From the IMG/VR virus record IMGVR_UViG_2585427783_000005: a DNA stretch of 32,447 nt; one strand, given 5' to 3'. Shown piece by piece: positions 5,712 to 30,782 of this stretch (its first letter is position 1; every line of letters starts with the position of its first letter). The notes under the pieces were generated by a model. That model was not told where the DNA came from, did not search any database, and saw only the letters and a list, made by a program, of their open reading frames with translations. Source of the DNA: a virus (taxonomy: Duplodnaviria > Heunggongvirae > Uroviricota > Caudoviricetes). The translations under genes were made by a program, and so were the position numbers.

Positions 5712-7934
5712 TTGGCTGTTCAATTCGCTTATCCGTGGAACGTCCCACGGTCGGCAATCTCCAGCCCATACCTTACTTATGAGCAACAGCATCGCCGCGA
5801 CCGTATGTTCGCGGCTTTGCTGCATGCAAAAAAGGTGCTTTCTCTCCAGCCCGACTGCGTGCGGTTAGATGTTTATCGCACTGCTGCGGTGCTGGAACAA
5901 AATCAGGGTAGTCAACGAGCCAATGCATTTTTAATCAGCTTCTGCAAAAAGGCATTGCCGCGTCTTGAACTGGTCGCAAAAAAATACGAATGCGCTGGTA
6001 TCAACAGCAAGGTATCAACCGCTGTTTTTGGAAGTCATTTTGATACTCAGCAAATGCAATATCTGTCGTCACGCATGGTTAATATGGTCGCCCGATATAA
6101 CCGTCTCCCGGACATGTCGCGCGCTGATGTTGACCTGTTGGCCGCTGATATTGCTAATTTCATTCGTGGTGAACTTGCCAACATTAATGACCACGGATTC
6201 AGCGAGCTTAAAACGCTGTACACCTGGTATATTCGTGCTGGCTTTATTTCCCTCCAATTCAACGTTATCCCACCACATTGGGAGCGGGTTGAAAAAAAAT
6301 ATGTCGGTGCGGATGAAATCGCACCGGCTATCGCCAAAATGTTTAACGATGGGTGGTGGCGCGGTCGTTTGCGCCGTGTAGCAGCTACGTGGCGCGAACA
6401 CCTGCAAATTGCAGTCGGCAACGTCAGTAAGAAAAAAAACACTTACGCGAGTAAAAACTGCGTGACTGACTGGCGTGAACAAAAGCGCCGCACTCGTGAA
6501 TTTCTCAAAGGTCTGGATCTCGAAGACGAAGACGGCAACCGTATCAGCCTAATTGAAAAATATGATGGCTCAGTTGCTAACCCTGCGATTCGCCGCTGTG
6601 AGCTCATGACCCGCATTCGTGGGTTTGAAAACATCTGTAATGAGCTCGGTTATGTCGGTGAGTTTTACACTCTAACCGCGCCGTCAAAATATCACGCCAC
6701 GACTAAAGCCGGTTACCGTAACAGCAAATGGAGCGGTGCCAGCCCGGCTGACACGCAAAACTATCTAACCGGTATCTGGGCGCGTATCCGTGCCAAACTA
6801 CATCGGGAAGATGTCCGTATTTTCGGTATTCGTGTCGCCGAGCCCCATCACGACGGCACTCCACACTGGCACATGCTGATGTTCATGCTGCCGGAAGATG
6901 TTGAATATGTTCGCTCCATCGTCCGTAAATACGCATGGAAAGAAGACCGCCACGAACTGAAAAGCGATAAATCCCAAAAAGCACGTTTCCACGCGGAGTC
7001 CATTGACCCGGAGAAAGGCAGCGCAACCGGCTATGTTGCTAAATACATTTCAAAAAATATCGACGGTTATGCTCTCGATGGTGAAACCGATGATGAAAGC
7101 GGTGAGCTGCTGAAAGAGACAGCCCCCGCCGTTTCAGCATGGGCTGCGCGCTGGCACATCCGTCAGTTTCAGTTTATTGGTGGTGCGCCGGTGACGGTTT
7201 ACCGTGAGTTGCGTCGCCTCGCTGATACCGAAACCGCGCACGGTCTGAGCGTTGAGTTTGCCGCCGTCCATGATGCCGCCGACGCTGGTGACTGGGCTGG
7301 TTATGTTAATGCTCAGGGTGGGCCGTTTGTCCGTCGCGATGATTTACAGGTGCGCACACTGTATGAACCGCGTACCGAGCTTAATCAGTACGGTGAGGAA
7401 ACGGTATGTATTAAGGGGGTCTACGATTCCTCCATAGGTGCAGGAAGCCCGATTTTAACCCGGCTCACTCAGTGGAAGATTGTTCCGAAGCGTGCTGTTG
7501 ATTTGGCCGTTGACCTTCAGGACGGCAAAGCCGTCCCTCGGAGTTCTGTCAATAACTGTACGGGAAGCGAAAGCGATCCACCGATACTGGATTTAACAAA
7601 ACCACTGAGTCGGCGTGAAAGACGAGAATTGACCAACCGACTCAGGAAGCAAAAGCCAGCAGCACGGCGAAAATTCATCCACGGAACGGATGAGCAAAAC
7701 GCAGCTATAGCTAAAACTATCGATGAGATACATCTGACAACCGGCATTAATATCAGCCGGGGCGAAGCCCTGCACCTGATGGCCGGTGGTAAAAGTTGTT
7801 TTGATGGTAAATGGCTACGCGGAACGGCCAAAGGAGAAATATTTTCCGCAGCACCATCGCATGAGGCTAAAGCTCGGAAAATCCTTAATCGTGTTGCGGC
7901 GATGGCTGAAGCATCAAAACCAATACATGAGTAA
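5712..7934 (+). CDS. A: Rolling-circle replication initiator (P2 gpA family)
   Basis: 740 aa; HHDGTPHWHML and GYVAKYISKNIDGYALDG motifs; apparent TTG start at 5712 after a GGGGG RBS giving MAVQFAYPWNVPR, which resembles the P2 A N-terminus. Confidence 0.9.
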   Translation: MAVQFAYPWNVPRSAISSPYLTYEQQHRRDRMFAALLHAKKVLSLQPDCVRLDVYRTAAVLEQNQGSQRANAFLISFCKKALPRLELVAKKYECAGINSKVSTAVFGSHFDTQQMQYLSSRMVNMVARYNRLPDMSRADVDLLAADIANFIRGELANINDHGFSELKTLYTWYIRAGFISLQFNVIPPHWERVEKKYVGADEIAPAIAKMFNDGWWRGRLRRVAATWREHLQIAVGNVSKKKNTYASKNCVTDWREQKRRTREFLKGLDLEDEDGNRISLIEKYDGSVANPAIRRCELMTRIRGFENICNELGYVGEFYTLTAPSKYHATTKAGYRNSKWSGASPADTQNYLTGIWARIRAKLHREDVRIFGIRVAEPHHDGTPHWHMLMFMLPEDVEYVRSIVRKYAWKEDRHELKSDKSQKARFHAESIDPEKGSATGYVAKYISKNIDGYALDGETDDESGELLKETAPAVSAWAARWHIRQFQFIGGAPVTVYRELRRLADTETAHGLSVEFAAVHDAADAGDWAGYVNAQGGPFVRRDDLQVRTLYEPRTELNQYGEETVCIKGVYDSSIGAGSPILTRLTQWKIVPKRAVDLAVDLQDGKAVPRSSVNNCTGSESDPPILDLTKPLSRRERRELTNRLRKQKPAARRKFIHGTDEQNAAIAKTIDEIHLTTGINISRGEALHLMAGGKSCFDGKWLRGTAKGEIFSAAPSHEAKARKILNRVAAMAEASKPIHE

Positions 7935-8008
7935 TTCATATCCATATCATGCACATACAGCAATCGCTCTATTCGTTTTTTTTCTTCCCATCTTTTGCCA
8001 ATACGTGC

Positions 8009-8028
8009 TACTGTATAAATATACAGTA
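8009..8028 (+). promoter_or_regulatory. LexA (SOS) box overlapping a promoter upstream of the small-ORF/DinI-like operon
   Basis: TACTGTATAAATATACAGTA: CTGT-N8-ACAG, near-perfect palindrome matching the E. coli LexA consensus; TTGCCA -35-like hexamer at 7995-8000. Confidence 0.8.
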
Positions 8029-8047
8029 ACCCTGTGGGAGGGATTTC

Positions 8048-8230
8048 ATGGTTGGCGAACATTTCAGCCGAACGCAGCAAAAGTGGGCTTGTGTGCAATT
8101 TATTGCCGAGGTATCTCTGATTGCAAACTGCAAGCCATCAGACTTAAAGCTCGCGCTCACTCTCATTGCAGACCTAGCAAACAGCGAGAATAACGAAACC
8201 GAAGATGATAATTTTTATAAGGCTGATTAG
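8048..8230 (+). CDS. Small hypothetical protein, first gene of the putative LexA-controlled operon
   Basis: ATG 8048 with GGGAGGG RBS; 60 aa; acidic C-terminus. Confidence 0.55.
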   Translation: MVGEHFSRTQQKWACVQFIAEVSLIANCKPSDLKLALTLIADLANSENNETEDDNFYKAD

Positions 8231-8233
8231 ATT

Positions 8234-8467
8234 ATGAGAATCAATATCACGTTGGATAAAGAGCAAAAAATTAGTCAGGCAACATTGGATGCACTTGAGG
8301 CTGAACTGTACCGCAATCTTCAACCTATTTACCCAAAGACTGCTATCCGAATTCGCAAGGGCTCCGCTAATGGCGTTGAACTAAGCGGTTTGAAACTGGA
8401 CGAAGATAAAAAACGAGTAATGGAAATCATGCAGCAGGTATGGGAGGACGATAGCTGGCTGCATTAA
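8234..8467 (+). CDS. DinI/Tum-family protein (candidate SOS-induced antirepressor or RecA modulator)
   Basis: 77 aa; MRINITLDKEQKISQATLDALEAELYRNLQPIYP ... EIMQQVWEDDSWLH resembles DinI in length and conserved N- and C-terminal segments; downstream of the LexA box. Confidence 0.75.
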   Translation: MRINITLDKEQKISQATLDALEAELYRNLQPIYPKTAIRIRKGSANGVELSGLKLDEDKKRVMEIMQQVWEDDSWLH

Positions 8468-8469
8468 CA

Positions 8470-8541
8470 AACGCCGCCGGTGCTGAAACTTGCTTTCAGT
8501 GCTGGCGGGGTTGAACAACTCGCACCGCGAGGCGCTAGTTC
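8470..8541 (+). repeat. Copy 1 of ~72-bp direct repeat with internal stem-loop, 3 nt after the DinI-like stop
   Basis: AACGCCGCCGGTGCTGAAACTTGCTTTCAGTGCTGGCGGGGTTGAACAAC...GCGAGGCG; ~85% identical to copy 2. Confidence 0.8.
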
Positions 8542-8662
8542 TTCCTCTCAAAGTTTCTCGATGTTTTATTGGTTACACACCAGTGATGAATGGGACGTTA
8601 CCTTAGCGGGTTTTATAGTGGCGCTGTGGCAGCGCTAAATAAAATTCATTGAGGGCGATAAT

Positions 8663-8872
8663 ATGCATCGACTACCGGGCGAAATTCCGCAGCACAAAAC
8701 TAAAAGCATCAAACTGATGGCCATCGTTCATCGTCTGCAGCAGATAATGGTCAATGAGAATTTGACACCCGCCGAGCTGGTCGGGTGTGCCGAAATAGTC
8801 AGGGATAATTACGGCAAGCTGGATAGCATCAGCAAGCCGACACATTACTCACCGCCACCACGTCGACCATAG
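8663..8872 (+). CDS. Hypothetical small protein between the two repeat copies
   Basis: ATG 8663 with GAGGG RBS 7 nt upstream; 69 aa. Confidence 0.55.
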   Translation: MHRLPGEIPQHKTKSIKLMAIVHRLQQIMVNENLTPAELVGCAEIVRDNYGKLDSISKPTHYSPPPRRP

Positions 8873-8874
8873 AT

Positions 8875-8946
8875 AACGCCGCCGGAGCTGAAACTCGCTT
8901 TCAGGTCTGGCGGGGTTGAACAACGAGCTACGCGAGGCGTTAGCCG
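8875..8946 (+). repeat. Copy 2 of ~72-bp direct repeat with internal stem-loop, 3 nt after the 69-aa ORF stop
   Basis: AACGCCGCCGGAGCTGAAACTCGCTTTCAGGTCTGGCGGGGTTGAACAAC...GCGAGGCG; stem preserved by compensatory changes relative to copy 1. Confidence 0.8.
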
Positions 8947-9005
8947 GTCATAGCGTCGCAAATACTTCAACCGTCTGCTGGTTAAATAATTCGAGGTTTT
9001 TGGAC

Positions 9006-9200
9006 ATGCAAAATCCCCTTTCATCGAAAAATGACCCGTTTGCCGATTGGGCAAAGAATCTGACTTTAATGGCTTTAAATAACGACCTGAGCTCTCGCGA
9101 GGTGGAAAGCTACACCGCAAAAATGGTCGGGCAGGCCGGTAAAGATGAGCTATCAGTCGTTATCAAACACCTGTTAAATCACATCAGAATGCGCAAATAA
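9006..9200 (+). CDS. Hypothetical small protein
   Basis: ATG 9006 with GAGG 9 nt upstream; 64 aa (track ORF 8916..9200 starts at a TTG inside repeat copy 2). Confidence 0.4.
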   Translation: MQNPLSSKNDPFADWAKNLTLMALNNDLSSREVESYTAKMVGQAGKDELSVVIKHLLNHIRMRK

Positions 9201-9216
9201 GAGGAACTATATAAAT

Positions 9217-9318
9217 ATGTTATCTCTCGTTTATGAAAATCCGTGGACGACGATTTTTCTGATGATTGTTGCCAGCATGTGCCTCAACAGTGTTATTGGC
9301 GCATTGCGCGGCCATTAA
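9217..9318 (+). CDS. Small hydrophobic peptide (33 aa, single predicted TM helix)
   Basis: ATG 9217 with AAGAGGAA RBS 10 nt upstream; MLSLVYENPWTTIFLMIVASMCLNSVIGALRGH; followed by a strong terminator. Below the ORF-track size cutoff. Confidence 0.45.
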   Translation: MLSLVYENPWTTIFLMIVASMCLNSVIGALRGH

Positions 9319-9336
9319 TCGCGACAAAACCAGACT

Positions 9337-9367
9337 AAAACCGGCACCCTGAATGCCGGTTTTTTTA
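9337..9367 (+). terminator. Rho-independent terminator ending the post-A accessory operon
   Basis: AAAACCGGCA-ccctgaa-TGCCGGTTTT followed by a T-run (TTTTTTTAT). Confidence 0.8.
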
Positions 9368-9526
9368 TGCCATTTTTCCGCGAATTTCCCGTTTTTTAGT
9401 CGTGCATGCATCAGGTGCATGGTTTTGCATGCGTCAGTCTTGCCCGTTCTGTCCGTGCGCCGCCAGAGCTAGCGCGGATCCAGAGTTGTCATGCAACTGC
9501 ATTAAAACCGCCCCATAAAGCGGGCA

Positions 9527-9545
9527 GGCGTGGCGGGGAAAGCAT
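9527..9545. other. cos site (cohesive-end sequence, P2/186 type)
   Basis: GGCGTGGCGGGGAAAGCAT in a ~400-bp GC-rich non-coding interval between the early/accessory region and portal gene Q, where cos lies in P2-family prophages; resembles the P2 19-nt cohesive end as I recall it. Confidence 0.65.
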
Positions 9546-9764
9546 TGCGCGCCAGCAGTGATGCGTAATAATAAAAATTATCCTCTGAGCGCGTCGTGAT
9601 GGCGCTGTCGTGGTCGCTGCTGGTTCGTTGGTGGTCGAGTGTGTTCGTGCGCGTGAGACGCATCTGATGCGTGATGGTGGTGTGCATGGAAAAGCCACCA
9701 GGAGCAGCGGCTTTACAGGAGTGGCAGGATTCAAACTGCTAATTATGTTTCTACTATGATTAAA

Positions 9765-10769
9765 CTAATTTACATGTATGTAGAGTTCACCGTCGCCAGA
9801 CCAATCGGGACACTCTAAAACAAGCCCAAACTGCTTGAATATTTCATCAATGATTATTGTTATCTCCCGAAAATCACCAAAACCTGTAATGTGCTGGTCA
9901 TTAAACTTCCCATAAAGATTCTGAAAAGCAATGCCTAATTCTGATAATTGATATCTTATCTTTGAGTTGGATAGTGTAAGGGATAGCTTTGGATCGTATT
10001 CTTTAATATTGATGTTTAGAGAATGGACATAACCCATCGCATAAGCATAAGAGTTGATGATTAGCCTGATACGTTTTTTTACTTCAAGATACATGTCATT
10101 CAGAGAAATATTACCGTACTTATAACCCCAGATGAGTTTTTCAATCTCGTCAGATACTTCATTTACAACAGTGTCAAGATTCTCTAAAAATAAATCGACA
10201 GTTTCTTGAGGGGCAGACCCCGAAGACATGTAATTAGCGAGATATTCAGACCATGCACGCGTGGCTGAGATAAGAAGCGCGCTACCATACTCGTTGACTG
10301 TAAAGTTTTGGGCTAAGCATGTTAGTAAGTTTTTTTCATGTACGTGCACTAATTCATGGTGAATGCGATGGATGACTGCGAGGTATCCTTCTTCTTTCAG
10401 TTTTAAGAAGCTACCATCATTGAAAAGCTCAACAAAAAAATCAATCGATAGCACAAGGGTATATTCTTCATATAGCCCATCATTGCCAATTTTTGTTACT
10501 AACTGCCCGACGGCTGCGCCCTGTTTGCTATTGGTAAATGAACTAGGGGATTTGTGTTGGTAAGAGGATGTTACCTTTTGAAGAGCTTCACTGAAGTTAT
10601 AGGAAACAATCACGCATTTTAATTTGGAGATATCAAGATTGAGATTCTTTGTTAAAGCTCGGATAGCTTCTAGTGTGAAATTACCGATATTATTTGCTTC
10701 TTGCTCAGTAGCGAAACCTTCGAGGGTTATTTTAAAATCAGTTTCCAAAATATTAATCTCCGCGCCCAT
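9765..10769 (-). CDS. AT-rich hypothetical protein with HExxH motif (possible metal-dependent hydrolase); accessory gene between cos and Q
   Basis: 334 aa ORF, ATG at 10767-10769 (revcomp); IHRIHHELVHVHE motif; strongly AT-rich relative to flanking phage genes; no recognisable P2 homolog. Confidence 0.6.
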   Translation of the reverse strand: MGAEINILETDFKITLEGFATEQEANNIGNFTLEAIRALTKNLNLDISKLKCVIVSYNFSEALQKVTSSYQHKSPSSFTNSKQGAAVGQLVTKIGNDGLYEEYTLVLSIDFFVELFNDGSFLKLKEEGYLAVIHRIHHELVHVHEKNLLTCLAQNFTVNEYGSALLISATRAWSEYLANYMSSGSAPQETVDLFLENLDTVVNEVSDEIEKLIWGYKYGNISLNDMYLEVKKRIRLIINSYAYAMGYVHSLNINIKEYDPKLSLTLSNSKIRYQLSELGIAFQNLYGKFNDQHITGFGDFREITIIIDEIFKQFGLVLECPDWSGDGELYIHVN

Positions 10770-10846: not shown

Positions 10847-11893
10847 TTATTCTGGGTTGTCGAGGGTGTACTCTTTGAATCTGATGACCTCCATGCCGAG
10901 CCAGTCATTTACCTCCCTGAACCTGTCCTGTAGCGGCGACAGCTCGTTGCGCACAAATACCTTTGCCACCTTCTCAACATCACCGAGTGAACCGATATTC
11001 TCGGGCTTGCCGCCCATGAGCTGGAACGGTACGCGGTGCGCGTCCATCAGATCGGCGGCACTGGCCTTCTTGATGTTGAAAAAGTCATCCTTTGTGGCGA
11101 CCTCGCTCAGTGGCACGATTTTGATGCCGTCCGGTTTTCCGCCGGGAGCGTAGAAAAACAGGTTCTTAAAGTTGCCGAGCCCTTTTGAGTTGCGCATCGC
11201 CTCGCGCAGCGATTCGACGTCGGTCGCGCTCTGCGCCGGGTCAGTCACATACATGATGTAGCCTGCGTGCGCGCCGTTCTGATAATACTTGCGGCGGAAC
11301 AGCGTCGCGGATTCATTCAGCCAAGCGGAATTAAGCGCGCTGAGATATTCCGGCAGACCGTAAATCTCCTGATTAATGTCGGGCTCCAGCAGGTGAAACA
11401 CGGTATCAGGCGCGAACTCGTGCGGCTGGGTGAAGTTTTCCACAAACCAGAAAATCGAATCGTCGACTCCGCGTCGGGTGTATTTGGCTGGCGAGGCCAG
11501 CAGTTTGATTAACTGGCCGGTGACGCTGTGGCGCTGCTCAAGAAAGGCGTTACCGAACACCAGATAATCGAGCGCAAAGCGGCTGAAATCCTGACGGGAT
11601 AACAACGGGTGCGGAATGTAGGTGCTCGCGAGCACGTTACGCTTAACATAAATTGGCGAGCTGTGATGCACGGCAGAGCGCAGGCTCTTTGCCAGCCCTG
11701 AGAAGCTGACCGGCGGCTCGTACCATTTGCCGTTACTGATGCACTCGACGTAATCCAGAATGTCGCGCTTATCGAGTACCGGCACCGGCTCGCCGAAGGT
11801 GAACGCTGTCGTTTTTGGCGGTGCGCTGGCGGTCAGTTGTTGTGGTTTGCTGGCCTTTTGTGCGTTGGCTTTACGGGATTTTTGTTTACCCAT
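10847..11893 (-). CDS. Q: Portal protein
   Basis: 348 aa; size, position and orientation (adjacent to and downstream of terminase P) match P2 gpQ. Confidence 0.9.
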   Translation of the reverse strand: MGKQKSRKANAQKASKPQQLTASAPPKTTAFTFGEPVPVLDKRDILDYVECISNGKWYEPPVSFSGLAKSLRSAVHHSSPIYVKRNVLASTYIPHPLLSRQDFSRFALDYLVFGNAFLEQRHSVTGQLIKLLASPAKYTRRGVDDSIFWFVENFTQPHEFAPDTVFHLLEPDINQEIYGLPEYLSALNSAWLNESATLFRRKYYQNGAHAGYIMYVTDPAQSATDVESLREAMRNSKGLGNFKNLFFYAPGGKPDGIKIVPLSEVATKDDFFNIKKASAADLMDAHRVPFQLMGGKPENIGSLGDVEKVAKVFVRNELSPLQDRFREVNDWLGMEVIRFKEYTLDNPE

Positions 11894-28345: not shown

Positions 28346-30782
28346 TAACCTGAGACTTGAGGTTTTGCTGAAAGCGGTCGACCAGGCGACCCGACCGCTT
28401 AAATCCATCCAGACCGCGAGTAAAACCCTGTCGGGCGATATTCGCGACACACAAAAAGGGCTGCGTGACCTGAACGGGCAGGCCGCGAAAATCGACGGCT
28501 TTCGCAAAACCAGCGCTCAACTGGCCGTAACCGGCCAGTCGCTGGAGAAGGCAAAGCGCGAGGCTGAAGCGCTTGCCACGCAATTCAAAAATACTGAGCG
28601 CCCGACGCGAGCGCAGGCACAGGTGCTCGAATCCGCAAAACGTGCCGCCGAGGGGCTGCAGGTTAAATACAACAGCCTCACCGAGTCGGTTAAACGCCAA
28701 CAACGCGAGCTGGGTGCCGCCGGTATCAATACCCGCAATCTGGCAAACGATGAGCGGGGGCTTAAAACACGCATCAGCGAGACGACGGCGCAGCTCAACC
28801 GGCAGCGTGAAGCATTGGCGAAGGTCAGCGCACAGCAGGCGCACCTAAACCGAGTGAAAGAGCGATATAAATCGGGTAAGGAGCTTGCCGGTAACATGGC
28901 CGCTGCAGGTGCTGCCGGGGTCGGTATTGCGACAGCGGGAACGATGGCCGGGGTTAAATTGCTGATACCCGGTTATGACTTTGCGCAAAAAAACTCCGAG
29001 CTGCAGGCTGTGCTCGGGGTCGATAAGCAGTCGCCAGAAATGCAGTCGTTACGCAAACAGGCGCGCCAGCTCGGTGACAATACAGCCGCTTCTGCTGATG
29101 ATGCAGCCAGTGCGCAGATTATTATCGCCAAAGGGGGCGGCGATGCGGCAGCCATTCAGGCGACGACACCGGTCACCCTCAATATGGCGCTTGCCAACCG
29201 TCGCACGATGGAAGAAAACGCCGCATTACTGATGGGGATGCGCTCTGCGTTTCAGCTTTCCAATGACAAGGTGGCGCACATTGGCGACGTTCTGTCGACG
29301 GTGATGAATAAAACTGCTGCCGATTTCGACGGGCTGAGCGATGCGCTGACCTACGCCGCGCCGGTGGCGAAAAATGCCGGTGTCAGCATTGAAGAAACTG
29401 CCGCAATGGTGGGCGCCCTGCATGACGCCAAAATCACCGGCTCGATGGCCGGCACCGGGAGCCGTGCGGTTTTAAGCCGCCTGCAGGCTCCGACCGGTAA
29501 AGCGTGGGATGCGCTTAAGGAGCTGGGTGTCAAAACTTCCGACAGTAAAGGCAACACGCGCCCGATTTTTACCATCCTCAAGGAAATGCAGGCCAGTTTT
29601 GAGCGTAACAATCTCGGCACCGGTCAACAAGCCGAATACATGAAAACGATATTCGGTGAGGAAGCCAGTTCGGCGGCGGCGGTGCTCATGACTGCCGCCT
29701 CAACCGGCAAACTTGACCAGCTAACCTCCACCCTGAAAGCCTCAGACGGAAAAACCGCAGAGCTTGTTAAAATTATGCAGGACAACCTCGGCGGTGATTT
29801 TAAAGAGTTCCAGTCTGCTTATGAGGCTGTCGGTACCGACCTTTTTGACCAGCAAGAGGGCTCGCTGCGCAAACTCACCCAAACCGCCACACAATACGTG
29901 TTGAAGCTCGACGGCTGGATCCAGAAAAACAAAGGGCTGACGACAACTATCGGGATTATTGCCGGTGGTGCGCTGGCGCTGATTGGTATCATCGGCGGCA
30001 TTGGTCTCGTTGCGTGGCCGGTTGTCATGGGGATTAATGCCATTATCGCCGCTGCTGGCATGCTGGGTACGGTCTTTACTGTCGTCGGTAGTGCCATTGC
30101 GACAGCGCTCGGTGCGATTACCTGGCCGATAGTGGCCGTCGGTGCGGCGATTGTGGCGGGGGCGCTACTCATCCGTAAATATTGGGAGCCCATCAGCGCA
30201 TTTTTCTCGGGAGTGATTGAGGGCATCATGAGTGCCTTTGCCCCAGTCGGGGAAATGTTCGCTCCACTGGCTCCCATTTTTGATGGTCTCGGCGAGAAAC
30301 TGCGCGGCGTCTGGCAGTGGTTTAAAGACCTGATAGCACCGGTTAAGGCCACGCAGGAAACGCTTGATAGCTGCAAAAATGTCGGCGTCATATTTGGTCA
30401 GGCACTGGCCTCTGCCTTGATGGCTCCGCTCAATGTTTTTAACAAGCTGCGCAGCGGTGTCGACTGGCTTCTCGAAAAGCTCGGCATCATCAACAAAGAG
30501 TCGGACAGCCTCGACCAGACCGCCGCCAAAACCAATGCCGCCACACAGGGTAATTCCTACATCCCGGCAACCAGCACATATGGCGGCTATCAGGCTTATC
30601 AGCCAGTTACCGCACCGGCGGGGCGCTCTTACATTGACCAGAGCAAAAGCGAATACAACATCAATCTGCCGGGAGGTGTTGCGCAGGGGCATCAGCTTGA
30701 CAGACAACTACGCGACACGCTCGAACAGATTGAGCGCGATAAACGCGCCCGCCAGCGTGCCAACATGACCCACGACTATTGA
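28338..30782 (+). CDS. T: Tail tape measure protein
   Basis: 814 aa, alpha-helical, with a hydrophobic Gly/Ala/Ile-rich segment (GIIAGGALALIGIIGGIGLVAWPVV...); size matches P2 gpT. Confidence 0.9.
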   Translation: MSNNLRLEVLLKAVDQATRPLKSIQTASKTLSGDIRDTQKGLRDLNGQAAKIDGFRKTSAQLAVTGQSLEKAKREAEALATQFKNTERPTRAQAQVLESAKRAAEGLQVKYNSLTESVKRQQRELGAAGINTRNLANDERGLKTRISETTAQLNRQREALAKVSAQQAHLNRVKERYKSGKELAGNMAAAGAAGVGIATAGTMAGVKLLIPGYDFAQKNSELQAVLGVDKQSPEMQSLRKQARQLGDNTAASADDAASAQIIIAKGGGDAAAIQATTPVTLNMALANRRTMEENAALLMGMRSAFQLSNDKVAHIGDVLSTVMNKTAADFDGLSDALTYAAPVAKNAGVSIEETAAMVGALHDAKITGSMAGTGSRAVLSRLQAPTGKAWDALKELGVKTSDSKGNTRPIFTILKEMQASFERNNLGTGQQAEYMKTIFGEEASSAAAVLMTAASTGKLDQLTSTLKASDGKTAELVKIMQDNLGGDFKEFQSAYEAVGTDLFDQQEGSLRKLTQTATQYVLKLDGWIQKNKGLTTTIGIIAGGALALIGIIGGIGLVAWPVVMGINAIIAAAGMLGTVFTVVGSAIATALGAITWPIVAVGAAIVAGALLIRKYWEPISAFFSGVIEGIMSAFAPVGEMFAPLAPIFDGLGEKLRGVWQWFKDLIAPVKATQETLDSCKNVGVIFGQALASALMAPLNVFNKLRSGVDWLLEKLGIINKESDSLDQTAAKTNAATQGNSYIPATSTYGGYQAYQPVTAPAGRSYIDQSKSEYNINLPGGVAQGHQLDRQLRDTLEQIERDKRARQRANMTHDY

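What the first reader, a model, noticed from the sequence alone, without database searches (positions are those of the whole stretch)
8470..8946. Two copies of a ~72-bp structured element, each 3 nt after a small-gene stop, with compensatory stem changes
Copies at 8470-8541 and 8875-8946 are ~85% identical and each begins 3 nt after the stop codon of a small gene. Both fold into the same 15-bp stem with a 5-nt loop. Where the copies differ in the stem, pairing is maintained (U·G and G·U in copy 1 versus A-U and G-C in copy 2), which is evidence of selection on RNA structure rather than sequence. No U-tract follows, so it is not a simple intrinsic terminator. It may be a 3' stability or processing element, a protein-binding site, or a recombination scar marking cassette-like gene exchange.
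Basis: seen in the sequence. Interest (0 to 1): 0.55.

Follow-up and report, generated by a model that had tools for sequence, protein, structure and literature searches.

The report
Strand-specific two-hairpin module of P2 phages and IncF plasmids
The two repeats are real copies of an unannotated, about 72-base non-coding module made of two hairpins, conserved in P2/186-like phages and, unexpectedly, in thousands of IncF conjugative plasmids, where it always lies on the DNA strand that is nicked and transferred.

Summary
Observation confirmed, with one correction. The window (a 186/PSP3-like prophage) holds exactly two copies, at 8467-8539 and 8872-8944. Each starts 2-3 nt after a stop codon.

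They belong to a large family. I found more than 140 copies in P2/186-like phages, always downstream of gpA and co-oriented with it. A sister lineage occurs in at least 5000 IncF plasmid records. There is no Rfam match and no annotation.

The unit has two parts:
- Hairpin 1 has 19 pairs and a free sequence. 14 pairs show compensatory changes, and a G·G mismatch is conserved.
- Hairpin 2 is sequence-conserved. Its stem holds either tandem G·A or Watson-Crick pairs.

Wobble statistics (180 G·T against 19 A·C) show that only the + strand is under selection to fold. In plasmids that strand is antisense to every neighbouring gene and carries the oriT nick motif. It is therefore the transferred T-strand.

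The unit has sharp ends and sits between backbone and variable cargo (22 left-flank types, 48 right-flank types).

It is not a terminator, an attC site or a REP.

Best reading (about 0.35): a folded single-strand DNA signal on the nicked or displaced strand, of the single-strand-origin kind, that also serves as a cargo-exchange joint. An mRNA 3' element (about 0.3) remains a serious rival.

The parts
8467..8539 (+). Element copy 1 (whole unit, covariance-model bounds). It begins on the last base of the TAA stop of the DinI/TumB-like ORF.
   Evidence: 87.4 bits, E 2e-22. This 'TCGC' type is also found after DinI-like genes in other phages.
8470..8512 (+). Copy 1, hairpin 1. AAC-G-CCGCCGGUGCUGAAA / loop CUUGC / UUUCAGUGCUGGCGG-G-GUU. 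It has 18 pairs plus a conserved G·G mismatch, and three G·U wobbles.
   Evidence: Folds (RNA; DNA, -21.2 kcal/mol). Covariation.
8514..8536 (+). Copy 1, hairpin 2 in its Watson-Crick form. Inner stem CUCGC / loop ACC / GCGAG. In this copy the AAC/GUU base is weakened to GCU.
8872..8944 (+). Element copy 2 (whole unit). It begins on the last base of the TAG stop of the gp37-like ORF.
   Evidence: 89.7 bits, E 4e-23.
8875..8917 (+). Copy 2, hairpin 1. Same register as copy 1. It has one extra internal G·G mismatch, and an A-U pair where copy 1 has U·G.
8919..8941 (+). Copy 2, hairpin 2 in its tandem G·A form. Base AAC/GUU; inner stem C-GA-GC / loop UAC / GC-GA-G.
8234..8467 (+). DinI/TumB-like ORF whose stop abuts copy 1.
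   Evidence: Pfam DinI 7.4e-24; PSP3 tumB annotation.
8663..8872 (+). gp37-like small ORF (ends ...PPPRRP*) whose stop abuts copy 2. Members of this ORF family precede the element in both P2-type and 186-type phages.
   Evidence: No Pfam family.
5712..7934 (+). gpA rolling-circle replication endonuclease. Its internal ori consists of a compensated hairpin plus the nick motif CCTCGGAGTTCTGTCAATAAC at about 7520-7556. The element lies 0.9-1.4 kb downstream on the same strand.
   Evidence: 125 of 125 copies co-oriented with gpA and downstream of it.
9527..9545 (+). cos cohesive-end sequence GGCGTGGCGGGGAAAGCAT. It marks the right border of the region that the element opens.
   Evidence: the 186 record ends at window 9526; P2 cosR is the homologous 19-mer.

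Best explanation
WHAT IT IS (high confidence). Each repeat is one copy of a discrete non-coding module of about 72-76 nt with sharp ends.
- Layout: 5'-(A)AAC-[hairpin 1]-GTT-G-[hairpin 2: A/G-AC AAC (GA|TC)GC NNN GCGAG GC GT-T/C]-AG-3'.
- Hairpin 1 is a 19-20 bp stem. Its sequence is free but its pairing is kept.
- Hairpin 2 and the linker are sequence-conserved.
- Only one strand is under selection to fold. This is the window's + strand.
- The family lives in P2/186-like phages of Enterobacterales and in IncF conjugative plasmids.

HOW IT MOST LIKELY WORKS (inferred, about 0.35). It acts as folded single-stranded DNA on the strand that an HUH nickase (TraI in IncF, gpA in the phage) cuts and that is then displaced or transferred.
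- It would be a single-strand signal of the ssi / single-strand-origin kind.
- The hairpins stay free of SSB, and a shared host factor reads hairpin 2. This would let complementary (lagging) strand synthesis or primosome entry start there.
- In R100, a primer laid at the copies would be extended straight into copB-repA and into orf245-traD.
- In the phage it would be the first structured site exposed on the displaced strand, about 1 kb past ori.

Because it is the last conserved patch before variable cargo, it also serves as the joint at which cargo is exchanged.

Shown here: the structure, the strandedness, the family, the position and the orientation relative to the nick in R100.
Inferred: that the phage + strand is the one gpA nicks, and that the ssDNA form is the active one.
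Not shown: any priming activity.
For: Structure
- Hairpin 1: 91.8% of 1518 cells are paired, against 42-46% when the partner is slid. 14 of 19 pairs change on both sides. 0 of 500 shuffles reach the observed values.
- The same holds on a structure-blind MAFFT alignment (87.4% paired, 12 pairs).
- Hairpin 2: the base pair is A-U in 73 phage rows and G-C in 7 plasmid rows, and is never unpaired. Tandem G·A/A·G alternates with U-A/C-G. One lineage has a paired T/A insertion.

Strandedness
- 180 G·T cells against 19 A·C cells.
- The + strand hairpin is more stable in 75 of 80 distinct copies, by 8.8 kcal/mol with RNA parameters and 4.8 with DNA parameters.
- By my hand count from the sequences, the plasmid lineages alone show 9 G·T and 0 A·C.
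- As ssDNA the + strand folds at -20 to -24 kcal/mol, against -14 to -16 for the complement.

Carriers and orientation
- 125 of 125 phage copies are on the gpA strand, 288-1872 nt downstream of it.
- In R100 both copies (record 75294-75367 and 88009-88085) are antisense to the co-oriented tra, leading-region and rep genes.
- Both lie on the same strand as the oriT nick motif GTGTGT|GGTGCTTT. Reading 5'->3' from that motif leads into the leading region, as expected of the T-strand (PMC11541004).
- The same antisense arrangement holds in F-type, pSLT, Klebsiella and E. marmotae plasmids and in a hok context.
- No sigma-70 promoter is predicted upstream of the plasmid copy, and no terminator at any copy.

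Module-like behaviour
- An identical 76-nt copy sits in two unrelated plasmid contexts, and identity stops exactly at GAAAC...GTCAG.
- 22 left-flank and 48 right-flank sequence clusters occur in 66 combinations.

From established knowledge
- Complementary-strand origins of ssDNA phages, the SSOs of rolling-circle plasmids and the F Frpo/ssi sites are all strand-specific intergenic hairpins on the nicked strand.
- SSOs are known to behave as exchangeable cassettes.
Against: - No priming or binding activity was or could be tested.
- There is no sequence similarity to any curated family (Rfam).
- I could not compare it with the published F/R100 ssi sequences.
- The strand nicked by P2/186 gpA was not verified. 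My only support is that a compensated hairpin lies 5' of the nick motif on the + strand, as at relaxase nic sites.
- Canonical P2 lacks the element altogether, so it is dispensable for P2-type replication.
- P2 is already known to use gpB/DnaB for lagging-strand synthesis (PMC3986222).
- Three G·U-type wobbles in four consecutive pairs, and the position 3 nt after stop codons with ORF-element-ORF-element arrays, look more like an RNA helix in an mRNA than like a DNA hairpin.
- The element is restricted to Enterobacterales, in P2-like phages and IncF only. A general host priming signal might be expected more widely.
Confidence: 0.35

Rival explanations
1. It is a structured RNA element acting in cis within transcripts. 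As a 3'-UTR or intercistronic hairpin pair it would block 3'-5' exonucleases. Alternatively it is an RNase III / RNase E processing site of the lambda sib type, or it slows termination at a stop codon only 3 nt away. In each case it would set the level of the small upstream genes (tumB/dinI, gp37, orf97).
For: - In phages it is always in the sense orientation, directly after stop codons of at least 5 unrelated ORF families.
- It occurs in tandem ORF-element units in 17 loci.
- It lies inside the SOS (p95) transcription unit of 186, between orf97 and terminator t95b.
- The tum transcript is the most expressed in a related Salmonella prophage (PMC7067206).
- G·U wobbles and tandem G·A pairs are typical of RNA helices.
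- In one plasmid it follows vapBC in the sense orientation.
Against: - In IncF plasmids the strand under selection is antisense to traT, traD, copB/repA, hok and their neighbours, in at least 3 independent contexts.
- Compensatory evolution is nevertheless ongoing between plasmid lineages.
- No promoter is predicted to drive such an antisense RNA.
- The sense-strand RNA of the plasmid genes would carry A·C and pyrimidine-pyrimidine mismatches and folds poorly.
- The distance to the stop codon is not constant. It is 3 nt in two ORF families, 8-24 nt in others, and in some cases there is no ORF.
Confidence: 0.3
2. It is mainly a recombination joint or a small mobile module with no physiological role of its own. 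It would be a conserved patch (kept or spread selfishly, perhaps inserting into ssDNA) at which homologous or illegitimate recombination swaps cargo. This would apply to the P2 variable (tin/old-type) locus and to the traT-traD slot of IncF plasmids.
For: - The ends are sharp, and an identical copy sits in unrelated flanks.
- 22 x 48 flank types occur in 66 combinations, and one left flank is seen with up to 12 right flanks.
- It lies at the left border of the P2 hotspot described in PMC9122126, next to varied cargo: a methylase, a reverse transcriptase, ORF226.
- In plasmids it lies next to orf245, orf203 or vapBC.
Against: - A passive homology patch would not maintain 14 compensated pairs, a strand bias of 180 G·T to 19 A·C, or an isosteric G·A / Watson-Crick switch.
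- No target-site duplication, no terminal inverted repeats and no linked transposase or recombinase were seen.
- There are only 1-2 copies per phage and 2-3 per plasmid.
- There are none in chromosomal backbones.
Confidence: 0.2
3. It is an attC-like or nic-like site: a folded ssDNA substrate for a site-specific enzyme (an integron-type tyrosine recombinase or an HUH nuclease) that inserts or excises ORF-plus-element cassettes.
For: - There are ORF-element arrays with the element right after the stop codon.
- It is a strand-specific imperfect hairpin with a conserved mismatch.
- AAC...GTT lies at the base of both hairpins, and the unit ends in GTTAG / GTCAG.
- The layout of a hairpin followed by a conserved 3' sequence on the nicked strand matches the layout of the P2 ori and the F/R100 oriT.
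Against: - The end-to-end helix an attC needs (AACGCC/GGCGTT) shows no covariation and breaks wherever it varies.
- The R'' box RYYYAAC is not matched, and GTTRRRY only sometimes.
- There is no integrase in cis.
- The folding strand in phages is the coding-sense strand, the opposite of attC bottom-strand logic.
- There is no similarity to the gpA nick motif.
Confidence: 0.07
4. It is a transcription terminator or insulator between the rightward early/SOS operon and leftward cargo genes.
For: - Stable GC-rich hairpins lie at convergent gene ends. The RT cargo stop is 74 nt to the right in L127, and the traT stop is 35 nt away in R100.
Against: - There is no U-tract on either strand, and no terminator-like call.
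- 186 and this window have separate canonical terminators further downstream: t95b and 9337-9363.
- The strand bias and the conserved hairpin 2 are left unexplained.
Confidence: 0.04

Closest known systems
Single-strand origins and single-strand initiation signals (ssoA/ssoU of rolling-circle plasmids; phiX174 n' site and G4 oric; F plasmid ssi/Frpo)
   Same: - A non-coding, intergenic, orientation-specific set of hairpins on the nicked or displaced strand of an HUH-initiated replicon.
- Part structure-conserved and part sequence-conserved.
- Dispensable.
- Behaves as an exchangeable module at recombination-prone borders.
   Different: - No sequence similarity was found to any curated family.
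- At about 72 nt it is much shorter than Frpo (about 300 nt), and it has no -35/-10 mimic.
- It has no CTG start site conserved across the family.
- No activity has been shown.
- In the phage it lies about 1 kb downstream of ori rather than just upstream of it.
Integron attC sites (59-base elements)
   Same: - Follows the stop codon of small promoterless ORFs, sometimes in arrays.
- An imperfect, strand-specific hairpin with a conserved unpaired position.
- AAC/GTT triplets at the helix base.
- ssDNA delivered by conjugation would be the natural substrate.
   Different: - It forms two separate hairpins rather than one bulged hairpin joining both ends. The joining helix has no covariation.
- The R''/L''/L'/R' boxes are not met.
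- No IntI gene is present.
- Sequence conservation is high.
- The folding strand is the sense strand in phages.
REP/BIME and other intercistronic mRNA-stabilising hairpins; the lambda sib retroregulator
   Same: - A stable hairpin just 3' of coding regions inside operons.
- No U-tract.
- A hairpin within 15 nt of a stop codon could also slow termination.
   Different: - It is not a chromosomal multi-copy family (only prophages and plasmids).
- It has no GTAG motif.
- It has a second, sequence-conserved hairpin.
- The plasmid copies are antisense to the genes.
HUH nick sites (P2/186 ori; F/R100 oriT)
   Same: - A hairpin followed 3' by a conserved single-strand sequence.
- Located on the same strand as the true nick site in R100 (shown) and in P2-like phages (inferred).
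   Different: - The tail has no similarity to either nick motif.
- The tail is itself folded into hairpin 2.
- No cognate enzyme is known.

Membership tests
Intrinsic (Rho-independent) terminator | GC-rich hairpin followed at once by a run of U/T | tested here: not met
   The hairpin is present, but the scan finds no terminator-like site at either copy on either strand or at the R100 copy. The sequence after the stem is GAACAAC on the + strand and UGU/AUC on the - strand.
Any curated RNA family (Rfam 15) | Covariance-model match at or near the gathering score | tested here: not met
   Searches at E<=10 on window 7500-10000 and on R100 L126 2700-3300 gave only chance-level hits, at most 23 bits against gathering scores of 40-55.
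Integron attC site | One imperfect hairpin that pairs the 5' end (R'' RYYYAAC) with the 3' end (R' GTTRRRY) | tested here: not met
   The end-to-end helix AACGCC/GGCGTT can form in 91% of cells. However, it has 0 compensated pairs, is no better than shuffles (500/500), and breaks in plasmid and AACCCC variants. The 5' heptamers (AACAAAC, AGATAAC, AGAGAAC) do not fit RYYYAAC.
Integron attC site | Association with an integron integrase and attI | tested here: not met
   No integrase other than the phage Int is annotated in the loci examined.
REP/BIME | Hundreds of chromosomal intergenic copies with a conserved GTAG-containing palindrome | tested here: not met
   There are 1-3 places per E. coli genome, in 452-1073 of 5426 genomes, consistent with prophages only. 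The one-genome-per-species scan found 20 loci: P2-like prophages and IncF plasmids, a few short contigs labelled as other taxa, and one chance hit that the covariance model rejected.
Single-strand origin / ssi signal | Lies on the strand that is nicked and displaced or transferred, in one fixed orientation | tested here: met
   For IncF, both R100 copies are on the strand that carries the nic motif, and all plasmid contexts are antisense to the co-oriented genes. For phages, 125 of 125 copies are on the gpA / annotated-ori strand. Whether that strand is the nicked one is inferred, not verified.
Single-strand origin / ssi signal | Strand-specific secondary structure under selection | tested here: met
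Single-strand origin / ssi signal | Supports orientation-dependent priming of complementary-strand synthesis | not testable with these tools
   Needs an M13 delta-ori plaque assay or in vitro priming.
Single-strand origin / ssi signal | Sequence relationship to known ssi/SSO types (Frpo, G4-type, phiX-type, ssoA RSB/CS-6) | not tested
The element is too short for a Frpo-type -35/-10 mimic, and no promoter-like hexamers were found.
mRNA 3' stabiliser or processing hairpin | Present in the sense orientation within a transcript, 3' of the regulated gene | tested here: inconclusive
   Met in all phage copies. Not met in IncF copies, apart from the vapBC case.

The most novel reading that the evidence does not exclude
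The module is a previously unrecognised class of ssDNA-active site shared by rolling-circle phages and conjugative plasmids of Enterobacterales. It would be read on the nicked strand by a common (host or mobile-element) factor. It would both start complementary-strand synthesis and mediate precise, strand-specific capture and exchange of cargo, including anti-phage defence genes. In effect it would be an integron-like cassette joint without an integron. It would operate at the border of the P2 defence hotspot and in the traT-traD slot of IncF plasmids.
Probability: 0.15. Interest if true: 0.85.

Novelty: new variant of a known kind. Interest (0 to 1): 0.6.

Why it matters
P2-like prophages and IncF plasmids are among the commonest mobile elements of E. 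coli, Salmonella and Klebsiella. The P2 locus that this element borders is a known reservoir of anti-phage defence systems. IncF plasmids are the main carriers of resistance genes.

A conserved, strand-specific structured module shared by both, lying on the strand that becomes single-stranded, has not been annotated in any record I examined and has no Rfam family.

If it is a single-strand origin or primosome entry site, it bears on two questions. One is how incoming plasmid DNA is converted to duplex beyond the leading region. The other is how P2-type rolling circles start lagging-strand synthesis.

If it is a recombination joint, it would explain how defence and other cargo is swapped so precisely at these loci.

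In either case the covariance model gives a ready marker for the left border of the P2 hotspot and for the traT-traD cargo slot.

Tried and rejected
- Rfam at E<=10 on the phage and plasmid copies: nothing.
- Terminator and sigma-70 promoter scans: nothing at the element.
- attC-type end-to-end helix: no covariation.
- Similarity of the conserved tail to the gpA ori nick motif: only a 5-mer is shared, and the P2 'GCGCC' is not conserved in 186 or the window.
- Coding potential: both strands have short ORFs through the element. However, the loop of hairpin 2 varies by 2-4 nt and one lineage has T/A insertions, so no frame is kept.
- Resemblances recalled from memory and dismissed on the sequence:
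  - LexA box: here CTG-N11-CAG, one base too long, and absent from plasmid copies.
  - Chi: GCTGGCGG is 7/8, and absent from plasmid copies.
  - RfaH ops: GGCGTTAG against GGCGGTAG, with the essential G5 changed; the plasmids have GTCAG.
  - Tus Ter core, IHF and DnaA boxes.
  - Tn3-family terminal repeats (GGGG...TAAG).
- Fourfold-site GC/AT skew, to infer the direction of phage replication: uninformative.
- Literature:
  - Nilsson et al. 2004, Odegrip et al. 2006, Liu and Haggard-Ljungquist 1994 and the Christie and Calendar P2 review are not held.
  - According to PMC8987985, the repeats of Nilsson 2004 concern the Z/fun locus, not this one.
  - No paper in the library contains the element's conserved strings, apart from unrelated primers.
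- Searching the tail alone against E. coli genomes for a chromosomal target or copy: only prophage-type hits.
Full report
**1. The observation**

The window is a 186/PSP3-like member of the P2 family.
- The gpA replication endonuclease is at 5712-7934.
- A LexA box (8011-8026) lies upstream of tumA-like and DinI/TumB-like ORFs.
- The cos cohesive end is at 9527-9545, and the portal gene lies on the other strand.

The two repeats are real.
- They lie at 8470-8538 and 8875-8943 and are 87% identical.
- A degenerate 50-mer matches twice, against 0 expected.
- Each begins 3 nt after a stop codon: TAA 8465-8467 and TAG 8870-8872.
- Each folds into the same long hairpin with a 5-nt loop.

U·G in copy 1 becomes A-U in copy 2, but the adjacent G·U becomes a G·G mismatch, not G-C. 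No terminator-like site is called at either copy.

**2. It is a family, not a local duplication**

BLAST finds the 81-nt query in 66 phage records, and no record I examined annotates it. These include 186 (30341-30412, between orf97 and terminator t95b), PSP3, SEN1, Wphi and ECOR P2-like phages.

A scan of IMG/VR followed by profile search gave 143 non-overlapping copies in 126 sequences, 17 of which hold two copies. That pattern was anchored on the 3' arm and tail, so conservation there is partly by selection.

A covariance model built from 38 non-redundant copies gave these results:
- It finds exactly two copies in the window.
- It finds none in canonical P2, where orf91 and tin are 38 nt apart.

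All 125 copies in loci that also hold gpA are on the gpA strand, 288-1872 nt downstream of it, with a median of 969 nt.

The element directly follows at least five unrelated ORF families:
- DinI/TumB;
- the fused Tum protein;
- gp37-like proteins ending in PPPRRP;
- the 186 orf97 family;
- a 66-aa ORF and ORF85 of P2-EC58.

**3. The unexpected relatives**

The 3' third of the element matches about 1600 conjugative plasmids. A query from R100 matches at least 5000 plasmid records, mostly IncF, and often at two places per record.

Reading R100 shows the whole architecture with a completely different first hairpin: GAAAC-GCC GGGAGGTGACAAAA TTTA TTTTGTTACATCCC GGGGTT-GGACAACGAGCAACGCGAGGCGTCAG.

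R100 has two copies:
- one between traT and orf245/traD (record 75294-75367);
- one between a DUF2726 gene and copB/repA2 (record 88009-88085).

Further variants occur in F-type, pSLT, Klebsiella and E. marmotae plasmids, and next to hok.

A scan of one genome per species found only 20 loci:
- P2-like prophages or IncF plasmids of Enterobacterales;
- a few short contigs labelled as other taxa whose sequence is identical to the IncF copy, which I take to be contaminants;
- one chance hit, later rejected by the covariance model.

**4. Anatomy**

*Hairpin 1* runs from AAC to GTT and has 19 modelled pairs.
- On 80 distinct sequences, 91.8% of cells pair, against 42-46% when the partner is slid.
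- 14 pairs change on both sides, and no shuffle out of 500 reaches the observed values.
- A structure-blind MAFFT alignment gives the same picture.
- One position near the base is a conserved G·G mismatch in 67 of 80 sequences. It is replaced by C-G in 11 and by A-U in 1.

- Its base AAC/GTT becomes GAC/GTC in every plasmid copy (73 A-U, 7 G-C, none unpaired). This is probably a single evolutionary event.
- Its inner stem is either C-GA-GC...GC-GA-G, with tandem G·A pairs, or C-TC-GC...GC-GA-G, fully Watson-Crick. The Watson-Crick form occurs on several different hairpin-1 backgrounds.
- The repA2-type plasmid copy has a paired T/A insertion.
- The variable triplet is the loop.

A helix joining the two ends of the unit can form but shows no covariation.

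**5. Only one strand is selected**

Across the family there are 180 G·T cells against 19 A·C cells. The + strand hairpin is the more stable in 75 of 80 sequences, with either RNA or DNA parameters. In the plasmid lineages alone I count 9 G·T and 0 A·C (sequences). Tandem G·A pairs become pyrimidine-pyrimidine mismatches on the complement. As DNA, the + strand folds at -20 to -24 kcal/mol and the complement at -14 to -16.

**6. Which strand is that?**

In phages it is the sense strand of gpA and of the SOS operon.

In plasmids it is antisense to every neighbouring gene. Since leading-region, tra and rep genes are co-oriented, it is the template strand.

The R100 nic motif GTGTGT|GGTGCTTT is recalled from the TraI specificity literature. 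It is found once, between the SLT gene and traM, on the same strand as both copies. Reading 5'->3' from it runs into the leading region, as the T-strand must (PMC11541004). So in IncF the folded form lies on the transferred strand.

No promoter-like site precedes the plasmid copy.

For the phage, the records give the gpA nick only as a coordinate. On the + strand a hairpin lies just 5' of the nick motif, and its sequence differs between phages while its pairing is kept: GCGGC/GCCGC in P2, GGGCGC/GCGCCC in 186, GGACGGC/GCCGTCC in the window. This layout is usual at relaxase nic sites. I therefore infer, but did not verify, that the + strand is the one nicked and displaced.

**7. Behaviour as a module**

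Two plasmid contexts (upstream of repA2, and next to hok) carry a 100% identical 76-nt copy, and the similarity stops exactly at GAAAC and GTCAG.

Over 166 copies there are 22 left-flank and 48 right-flank sequence clusters in 66 combinations. The right flank is the variable locus of P2-like phages, the hotspot of PMC9122126. There the cargo includes a methylase, a reverse transcriptase and others. In plasmids the adjoining traT-traD gap holds orf245, orf203, vapBC or nothing.

**8. Interpretation**

The structure, the strand bias, the family and its positions are shown. The function is inferred.

The one property that P2-like phages and IncF plasmids share, besides their hosts, is an HUH nickase that turns one strand into ssDNA. 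In IncF the element lies on that strand.

Strand-specific intergenic hairpins on the nicked strand are what complementary-strand origins look like in ssDNA phages, rolling-circle plasmids and F (Frpo/ssi). Such origins are known to behave as exchangeable cassettes. I therefore rank a single-strand DNA signal first (about 0.35). It would be a priming or primosome-entry site, read through the conserved hairpin 2 by a shared factor. Cargo exchange at the element would be a consequence of its being the last conserved patch.

The mRNA reading is nearly as likely (about 0.3). It fits every phage copy and the wobble-rich helix, but it needs an unseen antisense transcript in plasmids.

The remaining rivals are:
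- a purely recombinational or selfish module (about 0.2);
- an attC-like or nic-like enzymatic site (about 0.07);
- a terminator or insulator (about 0.04).

**9. Novelty and limits**

There is no Rfam family and no annotation in the records examined. No paper in the searchable library contains its conserved strings. Older subscription papers on 186, P2 and F traT could not be read, so a passing earlier description of the hairpin cannot be excluded.

The covariance-model alignment is fitted to the structure. The MAFFT control and the slid controls address this. Many sequences are closely related, so cell counts overstate the number of independent events. The hairpin-2 base covariation is probably one event.

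Noticed in passing
window about 7520-7556 (and L155 2853-2933; L001 696-776): The gpA origin lies inside the gene. It consists of a short hairpin just 5' of the conserved nick motif CTCGG|AGTYCTGTCAATAAC. The hairpin sequence differs between phages but its pairing is kept: P2 GCGGC/GCCGC, 186 GGGCGC/GCGCCC, window GGACGGC/GCCGTCC. This is a compensated DNA hairpin within a coding region.
   Followed up: partly
window 9765-10769 (-): A 334-aa ORF with no Pfam match sits between cos (9527-9545) and the portal gene (10847-11893, -). In 186-type phages this is a second variable slot, so the ORF is possibly defence cargo.
   Followed up: no
window 8011-8026: A perfect LexA-box-like palindrome, CTGTATAAATATACAG, lies upstream of the tumA-like ORF (8048-8230). 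It corresponds to the SOS-controlled p95 promoter region of 186.
   Followed up: no
window 9337-9363: A hairpin with T-runs on both sides, AAAACCGGCA...TGCCGGTTTTTTT. It was called terminator-like on the - strand and reads as one on the + strand too. It is probably the real end of the SOS operon, equivalent to 186 t95b.
   Followed up: no
L126/L149 (R100), L135, L151-L153: The traT-traD intergenic gap of IncF plasmids is a cargo slot: R100 has orf245, Klebsiella plasmids have orf203, an E. marmotae plasmid has vapBC in the anti-tra orientation, and F-type plasmids have nothing. The element always stays next to traT.
   Followed up: partly
L150 713-789 versus L154 1509-1585: A 100% identical 76-nt copy occurs in two unrelated plasmid contexts (upstream of repA2/copB, and next to hok/PIN genes). 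Identity ends exactly at the unit's borders, and no target duplication is visible.
   Followed up: partly
L126 about 2945-2960; L149, L153 and L154 equivalents: All four plasmid contexts share a short A/T leader (..TTTATT plus 0-4 nt) just 5' of GAAAC. Its meaning is unknown.
   Followed up: no
L127 (IncC plasmid NZ_CP025141.1) and L128 (Enterobacter plasmid): Complete P2-like prophages are integrated in plasmids, one carrying an Abi-P2-type reverse transcriptase right of the element. This shows a direct route for exchange between the phage and plasmid gene pools.
   Followed up: no
L140 (Escherichia sp. ESNIH1) 6267-6340 (-): Here the element is followed at once by a UmuD'-like ORF (MGFPSPAQDYVE...). 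Its longest reading frame runs back through hairpin 2, so gene callers may mis-extend ORFs into the element.
   Followed up: no
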